64,000 nt of DNA from Octopus vulgaris (lineage: Eukaryota). Position 1 is the stretch's first letter. Every line of letters starts with the position of its first letter. The position numbers were made by a program, and so were the translations under genes. Under the pieces are notes generated by a model. The model worked only from the letters and a program-made list of their open reading frames with translations. It was not told where the DNA came from and ran no database searches. The stretch is taken from positions 16,678,001 through 16,742,000 of the forward strand of contig OX597841.1 in assembly GCA_951406725.2 (NCBI GenBank), given 5' to 3'. Shown here one piece after another: positions 56,461 through 57,825 of this stretch.

Positions 56461-56912
56461 TTGTCCCCCTAGCATTGCTTGACAACCGATGCTGGTGTGT
56501 TTACCTCCCCGTAACTTAGCGGTTCGGCAAAAGAGACTGATAGAATAAGTACTGGGCTTACAAAAAATAAGTCCCGGGGTCGATTTGCTCGACTAAAGGC
56601 GGTGCTCCAGCATGGCCGCAGTCAAATGACTGAAACAAGTAAAAGAGTAAAGAGAGATTACAAGCTACCTTTCAGACAGTGTTGACAAGACTCGTTCGTA
56701 ATATTGTCTAAAACAGTTCTTCTCGGGTATGACTTTACCCTTTCTCTTCATTTTTTTCGATTCACCTACTTCTTAACCGATCAACTCAAATTATGGTTTC
56801 TATTATCTTGTTTGGCTTGCAGTATGTAAATGTAGCCATTTAAACATACCCATTTCGGTATTGGTATAAACTATTGTTAACTCTAGTTTCCGCAGCAAAT
56901 AGCTTTTATCTA

Positions 56913-57039
56913 TGGTTCTGAAGAATCGATCTTCGATTTTGTGTTTAGGATACCTCATGAACCAATGGTTACATATATTATTGTATAATGATATAGTAAT
57001 GCTCTTGAGATCAATTTTCGATGAAACAATTGTAAATCA
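56913..57039 (+). ncRNA. Type I hammerhead ribozyme with ~88-nt stem II insert (tandem copy 1)
   Basis: TGGTT/AATCA stem I; CTGAAGA 56918-56924; ATCGA/TCGAT stem II; GAAA 57023-57026; CAATTG; T-A. Confidence 0.75.
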
Positions 57040-57077
57040 ATGAAGTAAAAAAGGACTTGTTCACTCAAGTCTCCTTG

Positions 57078-57139
<62 letters not shown>

Positions 57140-57161
57140 ATGTATAAAGTGTGTGTGTGTA

Positions 57162-57350
57162 TGAAGGCACGTGGCCTAGTGGTTAGTGTCAGACTCATAA
57201 TCGTAAGAACGTGGTTTCGTTTCCTGCATCAAGTGACGCGTTGGGATTTTGAGCAAAATGATTCACTTCATGTTACTGTAGTCCACTCAGCTTTTCAAGA
57301 AGGAATGTGCCACAGAAACCGGGAAACCGGCCCCTATGAGTTGGAAAGGA
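57162..57350 (+). mobile_element. Older tRNA-derived SINE family D
   Basis: A-box TGGCCTAGTGG, degenerate B-box; tail CCACAGAAACC.GGAAACCGG also seen at 34408-34460. Confidence 0.6.
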
Positions 57351-57355
57351 TCTCA

Positions 57356-57420
<65 letters not shown>

Positions 57421-57479
57421 CACCTCCATATTAGTATAAACTTTTAACCCGAATTTCCACAGCAAATAGTTTTTATTTA

Positions 57480-57606
57480 TGCTTCCGAAGAATCGATCCC
57501 CGATTTCGTGTCTAGGAAACCATATGAACCAATGATTGCATATATTGCTGCGTAATAATACAATAATGCTAATGAGATCAATTTTCGATGAAACAATTGT
57601 AAATCA
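57480..57606 (+). ncRNA. Type I hammerhead ribozyme with ~88-nt stem II insert (tandem copy 2, U4C core)
   Basis: CCGAAGA 57485-57491; ATCGA/TCGAT; GAAA 57590-57593; CAATTG-T-A; stem I has one mismatch. Confidence 0.65.
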
Positions 57607-57825
57607 ATAAAACAAAATATAAGGACTTCTCCACACAATTCTCCTTTGTTATAAATATAGAAACTATGTATCTTTGTAGATTTTCAGGCAGATGTTTTAC
57701 ATAACAATCTCCTGATTACATTCTGCGTAATGGCCTGGACTCATTATTTATTTTCCCATTAGTGGAACTGTCTGATATTTCTGAATTTTGCAACTAGCTA
57801 CGATATTAGCAAATAAGTTGACTTA

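What the first reader, a model, noticed from the sequence alone, without database searches (positions are those of the whole stretch)
56850..57640. Diverged tandem pair in which the ribozyme parts are the best conserved: retrozyme-like ~230-bp unit
Seen: 56850-57075 and 57425-57645 are clearly diverged direct repeats, now separated by a SINE and microsatellites. Both keep C(T/C)GAAGA-ATCGA and an identical 35-nt block, GAGATCAATTTTCGATGAAACAATTGTAAATCAAT. Together these form stem II, GAAA, palindromic stem III, the GUA site and stem I around an ~88-nt insert that has an AT-rich hairpin in both copies. Established: metazoan non-LTR retrozymes and PLE pseudo-LTRs are tandem units of a few hundred bp with one type I hammerhead each, and retrozymes yield circular RNAs. 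Inference: purifying selection on an unusually large-loop hammerhead.
Basis: partly seen in the sequence, partly recalled or inferred. Interest (0 to 1): 0.75.

Follow-up and report, generated by a model that had tools for sequence, protein, structure and literature searches.

The report
Decayed Penelope-like ends with long-armed hammerhead
The two repeats are worn-out tail ends of one family of a known jumping gene (a Hydra-type Penelope-like retroelement), and each carries a predicted self-cutting RNA with an unusually long arm, a design found thousands of times in this genome, so they are most likely not a stand-alone circular-RNA unit.

Summary
Observation confirmed: two 81%-identical copies, an identical 35-nt block, and a type I hammerhead whose helix II domain is 98 nt. 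The retrozyme reading is not supported. The repeat is dispersed (42 genome matches) and continues upstream into Hydra-clade Penelope-like endonuclease and RT remnants. The window itself holds the endonuclease C-terminus (55741-55911) and an inverted truncated arm, the usual layout of these insertions. The '230-bp unit' is just the overlap of two 3'-end fragments. Across 89 family fragments the core and helix III carry about 0.55-0.65 of background substitutions, but the base of helix II does not, there is no within-family covariation, and 32 of 49 full-span copies have broken cores. Window copy 2 has U4C, and both copies are predicted to misfold. Selection most likely acted on the replicating source elements. 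The wider point is genome-wide: exact-core hammerheads with a 39-100 nt helix II number 7,430 (control 29) against 1,993 short ones, with compensatory stems across 18 families, and Rfam misses the window copy tested. I found no paper describing this, but the scan had already noted the same class on other DNA of this genome. Cleavage is untested.

The parts
55665..55742 (-). Inverted, 5'-truncated arm of the same element: 3' half of the hammerhead plus a short end running into microsatellite
   Evidence: profile E 8e-8
55739..56195 (+). Direct arm, head-to-head with the inverted arm: end of the PLE ORF and start of the 3' UTR
   Evidence: profile E 1e-55
55741..55911 (+). C-terminal end of a Hydra-type GIY-YIG endonuclease (..LINRHSELIMNCHHK..; N..CxH motif), open to its stop
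   Evidence: same motif in family copies; clade motif in PMC8557442 section 11
56196..56655 (+). High-copy SINE-like insertion with microsatellites interrupting the 3' UTR; about 330 nt of the element is missing here
   Evidence: (very high depth); the SINE label is recalled, not tested
56660..57079 (+). Copy 1: 3' UTR, hammerhead and ~45-nt tail ending in (TA)n
   Evidence: E 6e-72
56914..57038 (+). Hammerhead 1, intact core: helix I 56914-17 with 57035-38, CUGAAGA 56918-24, helix II domain 56925-57022 (98 nt), GAAA 57023-26, palindromic helix III 57026-33, predicted cut after 57034
   Evidence: active fold 10.7 kcal/mol above MFE
57080..57416 (.). (TA)n, SINE-like fragment and (TC)n at the junction of the two fragments
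57417..57742 (+). Copy 2: end of 3' UTR, hammerhead, and read-through about 140 nt past the cut site towards the family's longer 3' end
   Evidence: E 1e-55
57481..57605 (+). Hammerhead 2, damaged: U4C at 57486, C-U mismatch in helix I, helix II domain 57492-57589, GAAA 57590-93, predicted cut after 57601
   Evidence: active fold 8.6 kcal/mol above MFE; no difference listed at 57486 in the covering contigs of X15 and X16

Best explanation
The pair is two overlapping, decayed 3'-end (pseudo-LTR) fragments of an old Hydra-clade Penelope-like retroelement, likely left by one 5'-truncated inverted-plus-partial-tandem insertion into TA repeats, and each carries the element's predicted type I hammerhead with a 98-nt helix II domain. 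In the active ancestor the ribozyme would have cut multimeric or read-through transcripts after GUA, probably as a dimer through the palindromic helix III (inferred from known PLE hammerheads). The element's RT/endonuclease would then have copied the RNA into (TA)n sites, leaving two preferred 3' ends (about +45 and +190 nt from the cut). The extra conservation of the core most likely records selection during rounds of retrotransposition of source copies. After insertion the copies decayed and were interrupted by SINEs and microsatellites. Shown: homology, layout, coding remnants, conservation pattern, genome-wide abundance. Inferred: cleavage, dimer mechanism, single-event origin, timing of selection.
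For: Dispersed family: 42 matches from 40 scored of 138 candidates. Upstream homology reaches a GIY-YIG endonuclease with Hydra motifs. L120 has RT core, thumb, EN and the hammerhead collinear, with a head-to-head inverted arm. The EN C-terminus and an inverted arm lie in the window itself. Many copies end about 45 nt or about 190 nt after the cut site and run into TA or other microsatellites. The window pair are sisters (support 0.97) in a star-like tree of 42 copies (12 shared derived changes, top 3% of 1,176 pairs). Core plus helix III O/E is 0.55-0.66 under all controls. Family consensus helix II domain folds at z -3.1 against -0.36 and -0.09 for the window copies. Across 18 families, helix I is 4/4 paired in 32 of 55 motifs vs 7% for cross-family arms, and helix II has at least 4 of 5 pairs in 44 of 55 vs 27%.
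Against: No intact ORF of this family was found. RWK and DKT motifs were seen only in a sister family (L124). The first Cys-x-Cys of the linker reads CxF in this family. Pfam gave no meaningful hit on the fragments. Core conservation persists for variants seen in 2 or 3 copies or fewer (O/E 0.61 and 0.70, p about 0.01; singletons 0.86, p 0.36), and 17 of 49 copies keep intact cores vs 9% expected, so some selection on inserted copies cannot be excluded. The shared branch of the window pair also fits a later local duplication. The consensus prefers a competing hairpin by 3 kcal/mol. Cleavage was not tested.
Confidence: 0.85

Rival explanations
1. A non-autonomous non-LTR retrozyme: a ~230-nt unit that is cut out by two hammerheads, circularises and is re-inserted as tandem copies.
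For: Two hammerheads in direct orientation with about 229 nt of overlap. True perfect tandem arrays with long-helix-II hammerheads exist in this genome (534-bp unit). Retrozymes are reported to derive from PLE pseudo-LTRs (bioRxiv 10.64898/2026.07.22.740005).
Against: There is no fixed unit: 5' starts are scattered and the element runs from EN coding sequence to about +190. Copy 1 is preceded by 3' UTR and the EN end. No multi-unit array of this family was seen among the loci examined. Copy 2's core is mutated.
Confidence: 0.05
2. The inserted copies (this pair among them) are kept by host-level selection as working ribozymes or RNA-processing signals.
For: Core plus helix III has only 1 difference in 18 sites between the pair. 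A 36-nt identical run covers the 3' core (P about 0.02). Rare variants are also depleted in the core. The locus is present at about 97-99% identity in contigs of runs X15 and X16.
Against: U4C in copy 2. Both copies are predicted 8.6-10.7 kcal/mol from the active fold. In 16 other same-locus pairs core plus helix III O/E is 0.83 (p 0.18). No covariation in the family. 32 of 49 cores are broken.
Confidence: 0.07
3. The hammerhead is a chance motif in an AT-rich repeat and the long spacing means it never folded.
For: Rfam gives no hammerhead hit on copy 1. RNAalifold finds no consensus structure. Window copies fold no better than shuffles.
Against: Pattern counts are 7,430 vs 29 for the reversed control. 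Helices I and II pair within, not between, sequence-distinct families. The position matches that of known Hydra hammerheads.
Confidence: 0.03

Closest known systems
Hydra clade of C-terminal-endonuclease Penelope-like elements, including Hydra-1_Obim (Craig et al. 2021, PMC8557442)
   Same: RT-thumb-linker-GIY-YIG order; CxxC and CxH motifs around the catalytic E and N; (TA)n targets; inverted 5'-truncated arm; type I hammerhead near the 3' end with a short palindromic helix III (ACAA/UUGU like Penelope-2_NV).
   Different: Listed Hydra hammerheads have loop 2 of 3-10 nt (8 in Hydra-1_Obim; File S2). Here the helix II domain is 95-98 nt and branched. The 3' UTR is long (about 1 kb from EN end to ribozyme in L120). 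The linker reads CxFx5C rather than CxCx5C.
Minimal/atypical PLE hammerheads (Cervera & de la Pena 2014, PMC4209133)
   Same: Type I, in pseudo-LTRs, palindromic helix III suited to dimer cleavage, high variability between families.
   Different: They report helix II of 6-8 bp as 'larger than usual'. No 40-130 nt domains appear in the parts I read.
Animal non-LTR retrozymes (PMC7229834; bioRxiv 10.64898/2026.07.22.740005)
   Same: Type I hammerhead in direct repeats a few hundred bp apart; PLE connection.
   Different: No fixed non-coding monomer or array in this family; physically continuous with PLE coding sequence; second core broken.
Non-canonical long-loop hammerheads of PLE-X1_sMoe and PLE-X1_sTam (PMC8557442 File S2) and the discontinuous Clec2 hammerhead (recalled; paper not held)
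   Same: Precedent that hammerheads tolerate large insertions outside the core.
   Different: PLE-X loops are about 30-35 nt in spike mosses. Clec2 is a host-gene ribozyme with the insert elsewhere (recalled).

Membership tests
Hydra-clade PLE | C-terminal GIY-YIG EN downstream of RT in one reading direction | tested here: met
   L120: RT core, thumb, linker and EN collinear against P0002/P0005; broken by stops and frameshifts
Hydra-clade PLE | CxxC and CxH motifs either side of conserved E and N; no CCHH | tested here: met
   CNLCLEE..LINRHSE..RCHH in family copies; window 55741-55911 INRHSELIMNCHH
Hydra-clade PLE | CxCx5C linker | tested here: inconclusive
   The family reads CNFRNRNACPL (second Cys replaced); sister families have CxCx5C
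Hydra-clade PLE | RWK and DKT N-terminal motifs | tested here: inconclusive
   The copies examined are 5'-truncated; motifs seen in sister family L124, which also has a 75-nt helix II hammerhead
Hydra-clade PLE | Insertion into (TA)n | tested here: met
   Ends run into TA or other microsatellites in many copies, and in window copy 1
Hydra-clade PLE | RT phylogeny places it in Hydra | not tested
   No tree with reference PLE RTs was built; assignment is by motifs read against the supplement alignment of PMC8557442
Penelope-like elements | Inverted 5'-truncated arm, partial tandem and tail extension | tested here: met
   Window map; L120; two 3' ends
Type I hammerhead ribozyme | CUGANGA and GAAA core, UH site, helices I-III in type I order | tested here: met
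   Copy 1 and family consensus meet it; copy 2 has U4C
Type I hammerhead ribozyme | Covarying helices | tested here: met
   Met across 18 families; not seen within this family (243 of 500 shuffles as high)
Type I hammerhead ribozyme | Self-cleavage | not testable with these tools
   Needs an in vitro assay or raw RNA reads; only contigs were available
Non-LTR retrozyme | Fixed-length non-coding monomer in tandem repeats | tested here: not met
   Scattered 5' ends, continuity with EN sequence, no array of this family seen
Non-LTR retrozyme | Two consecutive complete hammerheads | tested here: not met
   Copy 2 has U4C and a helix I mismatch
Non-LTR retrozyme | Circular RNA product | not testable with these tools
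   Needs RNase R and divergent RT-PCR

The most novel reading that the evidence does not exclude
Penelope-like elements of this genome have turned helix II of their hammerhead into a 40-130 nt structured module, present in more than 7,000 exact-core copies across many families and missed by Rfam in the copy tested. The module does a job: either a binding site for the element's RT/endonuclease or a conformational switch that holds cleavage off until dimers form (this family's consensus has a competing hairpin within 3 kcal/mol). This would give a direct handle on the open question of what PLE hammerheads are for.
Probability: 0.2. Interest if true: 0.65.

Novelty: new variant of a known kind. 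Interest (0 to 1): 0.33.

Why it matters
The locus itself is ordinary transposon debris. What matters is the ribozyme design: in this genome most hammerheads with this helix III have a helix II domain far longer than published PLE examples, so descriptor and Rfam searches may undercount animal hammerheads. Young families with identical copies offer ready constructs to test whether the long arm changes cleavage or recruits the retroelement's protein, which bears on the unresolved role of PLE hammerheads (cleavage was dispensable for insertion in vitro in PMC11167929).

Tried and rejected
Rfam on the whole window: the 150 of 664 rows shown were all microsatellite-driven miRNA hits. Rfam on 56780-57070 gave no hammerhead. 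RNAalifold on 31 copies gave 0 pairs. Named-structure pair counts showed no covariation above shuffles. Pfam on 7 EN fragments and 5 sister-family fragments gave nothing meaningful; only weak RVT_1 and GIY-YIG hits on 2 of 5 intact database relatives. Expression: no RNA holder listed. One contig of run X1 (RNA is a guess) covers 56751-56958 at about 95%; this is not usable as evidence of transcription, and contigs cannot show cleavage ends. ORF listing showed no clear host exon near the locus (not a gene-finding test). ARAGORN found no tRNA in the SINE-like pieces. Naiad and Neptune assignments were rejected: the EN is C-terminal and lacks CCHH. A permuted-order hammerhead, as in other notes on this genome, was rejected because strand order here is standard type I. 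Lunse et al. 2016 and Martick et al. 2008 were not held, so long-helix variants described there cannot be excluded. Literature searches for a prior description found none among open-access papers.

Full report
1. Observation. The two segments align at 81% over about 210 nt. The 35-nt block is exact at 57007 and 57574. Each copy has the type I hammerhead order: helix I 5' strand, C(U/C)GAAGA, a 98-nt helix II domain closed by AUCGA/UCGAU, GAAA, palindromic helix III, GUA, helix I 3' strand. Copy 1 has an intact core. Copy 2 has U4C and a C-U mismatch in helix I. The identical run has P about 0.014-0.023 by chance given the pair's divergence. Rfam does not detect the motif in copy 1.

2. It is a dispersed retroelement end, not a 230-bp unit. 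A genome search with copy 1 gave 42 matches from 40 scored of 138 candidates, at 73-85% identity. Walking upstream led into a degraded GIY-YIG endonuclease with a CxF/Cx5C-type linker and CxxC and CxH motifs around the catalytic E and N. These are the Hydra-clade features of Craig et al. 2021 (PMC8557442; I read passages, section 11, supplement parts 1-2 and search hits in the supplement). Locus L120 carries RT core, thumb, linker, EN, 3' UTR and the hammerhead on one strand with an inverted arm head-to-head. A 68-aa EN fragment has 2,681 first-look candidates in the genome, and the 150 scored were all listed as matches. A sister family (L124) shows the Hydra RWK and DKT motifs and a 75-nt helix II hammerhead. 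No RT tree was built.

3. Window layout. A profile of the long element maps 55742-55665 (minus, hammerhead 3' half), 55739-56195 (plus), 56660-57079 and 57417-57742. 55741-55911 translates to the EN C-terminus. This is an inverted truncated arm, then a direct arm from EN end to tail, then a partial tandem: the known PLE layout (PMC8557442; PMC11167929 passages). Of 70 fragments that extend past the cut, 30 stop and 40 continue. Many of those that stop do so about 45 nt after the cut in TA or other microsatellites, and those that continue share a second end about 190 nt after the cut. Copy 1 uses the short end and copy 2 reads on. 5' starts of fragments are scattered. The two copies are sisters in a star-like tree of 42 copies (support 0.97; terminal length 9.7, internal 0.8), which fits one insertion from a diverged source or a later local duplication. 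Contigs of runs X15 and X16 cover both copies at about 97-99%.

4. Is the ribozyme best conserved? 142 profile hits collapsed to 89 non-redundant fragments. Against base-matched background, O/E is 0.53 for the 12 core sites, 0.52 for helix III, 0.72 for helix I, 0.91 for the helix II base and 0.90 for the insert. In 45 fragments from loci found with flank-only queries the values are 0.64, 0.62, 0.92, 1.17 and 0.98. Core plus helix III stays at 0.55-0.66 with context matching, with the insert alone as background, and without the window copies; profile trimming may add a small bias. Against ongoing function: 32 of 49 full-span copies have a broken core. In 31 of those 49 (18 dropped for gaps or short span) there is no covariation above shuffles and no RNAalifold structure. 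In 16 other same-locus pairs core plus helix III O/E is 0.83 (p 0.18; with helices I and II added 0.78, p 0.03). The consensus helix II domain folds at z -3.1, the window copies at -0.36 and -0.09, and their active folds lie 10.7 and 8.6 kcal/mol above the minimum, against 3.0 for the consensus. For some residual selection: 17 of 49 cores are intact vs 9% expected, and variants seen in 2-3 copies or fewer are still depleted in the core. I read this as selection in many source lineages (inference); selection after insertion is not excluded.

5. Genome-wide class. The pattern CTGANGA-N-GAAACAATTGTH gave 1,993 matches for N 8-38 (reversed control 7), 6,098 for 39-69 (20), 1,332 for 70-100 (9) and 194 for 101-131 (17). 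Bins can double-count nested cores, and only this helix III was searched. Among 55 distinct long motifs in the loci held (18 clusters), helix I was fully paired in 32 of 55 vs 7% for cross-family arms, and helix II had at least 4 of 5 pairs in 44 of 55 vs 27%. Some families are young, including perfect 534-bp tandem arrays, which are the real retrozyme-like units here. Linkage to a Hydra ORF was checked for this family and one sister family only.

6. Mechanism. By analogy with PLE hammerheads (PMC4209133, parts 1-2 of 4 read; PMC6765202 passages), the palindromic helix III would let two copies form an active dimer that cuts after GUA, processing tandem or read-through transcripts. The RT/EN protein would then insert the RNA at (TA)n. 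The long helix II is most simply tolerated cargo, since helix II points away from the core (established knowledge); a role as protein-binding site or switch is possible. U4C lowers activity in vitro but is tolerated in a viroid (PMC3088659 passage). All activity statements are untested.

7. Novelty. Published Hydra hammerheads have 3-10 nt loops, and the longest listed PLE loops are about 30-35 nt. 'Long helix II' in PMC13725137 means 6-8 bp (passages). Seven searches found no description of 40-130 nt helix II domains in animal PLEs, but Lunse 2016 and Martick 2008 were not held, and supplements of PMC4209133, PMC7229834 (passages only) and the bioRxiv retrozyme preprint (part 1 of 5 and passages) were not seen. 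I reached this reading before looking at earlier notes. The scan has already recorded long-stem-II Hydra hammerheads and tandem arrays elsewhere in this genome. That the host is octopus-like is an inference from recall and those notes.

8. Verdict. Real feature; new variant of a known kind. This locus is a dead example. Interest 0.33.

Noticed in passing
window 30253-30350 (+) and 30454-30723: Second long-helix-II hammerhead (58 nt, helix I UUUCGG/CCGAAA, intact) of a young high-copy family, followed by (TA)n and a Hydra-type EN remnant.
   Followed up: partly
window 33186 (+): Third hammerhead-like core with a 61-nt helix II candidate and a different helix III.
   Followed up: no
window 60901-61005 (+): Short Hydra-like RT fragment broken by microsatellite.
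   Followed up: partly
window 46693-47508 (+): Fragment resembling a PIF1/Helitron-type helicase C-terminus (family label recalled, not tested).
   Followed up: no
window 57842-58060: 77-bp tandem (about 2.5 copies, 96% alike) with a 35-nt inverted arm, a recent small duplication next to copy 2; a 20-bp GC-rich minisatellite follows at about 58650-58960.
   Followed up: no
L216:676-2555; G000:C1:40931795-40938492: Perfect 534-bp tandem arrays, each unit with a 49-50 nt helix II hammerhead; one array has 13 direct copies plus one inverted: true retrozyme-like arrays and the best constructs for activity tests.
   Followed up: partly
L069:3480-8837 (+): Apparently intact LINE-like ORF1/ORF2 pieces (629, 184 and 836 aa) directly upstream of a family copy, where the RT part would be expected.
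   Followed up: no
family consensus, helix II base: AUCGA/UCGAU occurs in both arms, so each arm can form its own local hairpin competing with helix II; the active fold is 3 kcal/mol above the minimum. Possible switch, or an accident.
   Followed up: partly
window 57494-57582 (runs X15, X16): One contig in each run joins across 87 nt of the insert; it belongs to another locus of the family and the sequence between is not known: possibly an insert-less copy.
   Followed up: no
L004 and L006; L026: Family copies caught in recent near-identical duplications (99% over about 3 kb in opposite orientation; 96-97% inverted pair).
   Followed up: no
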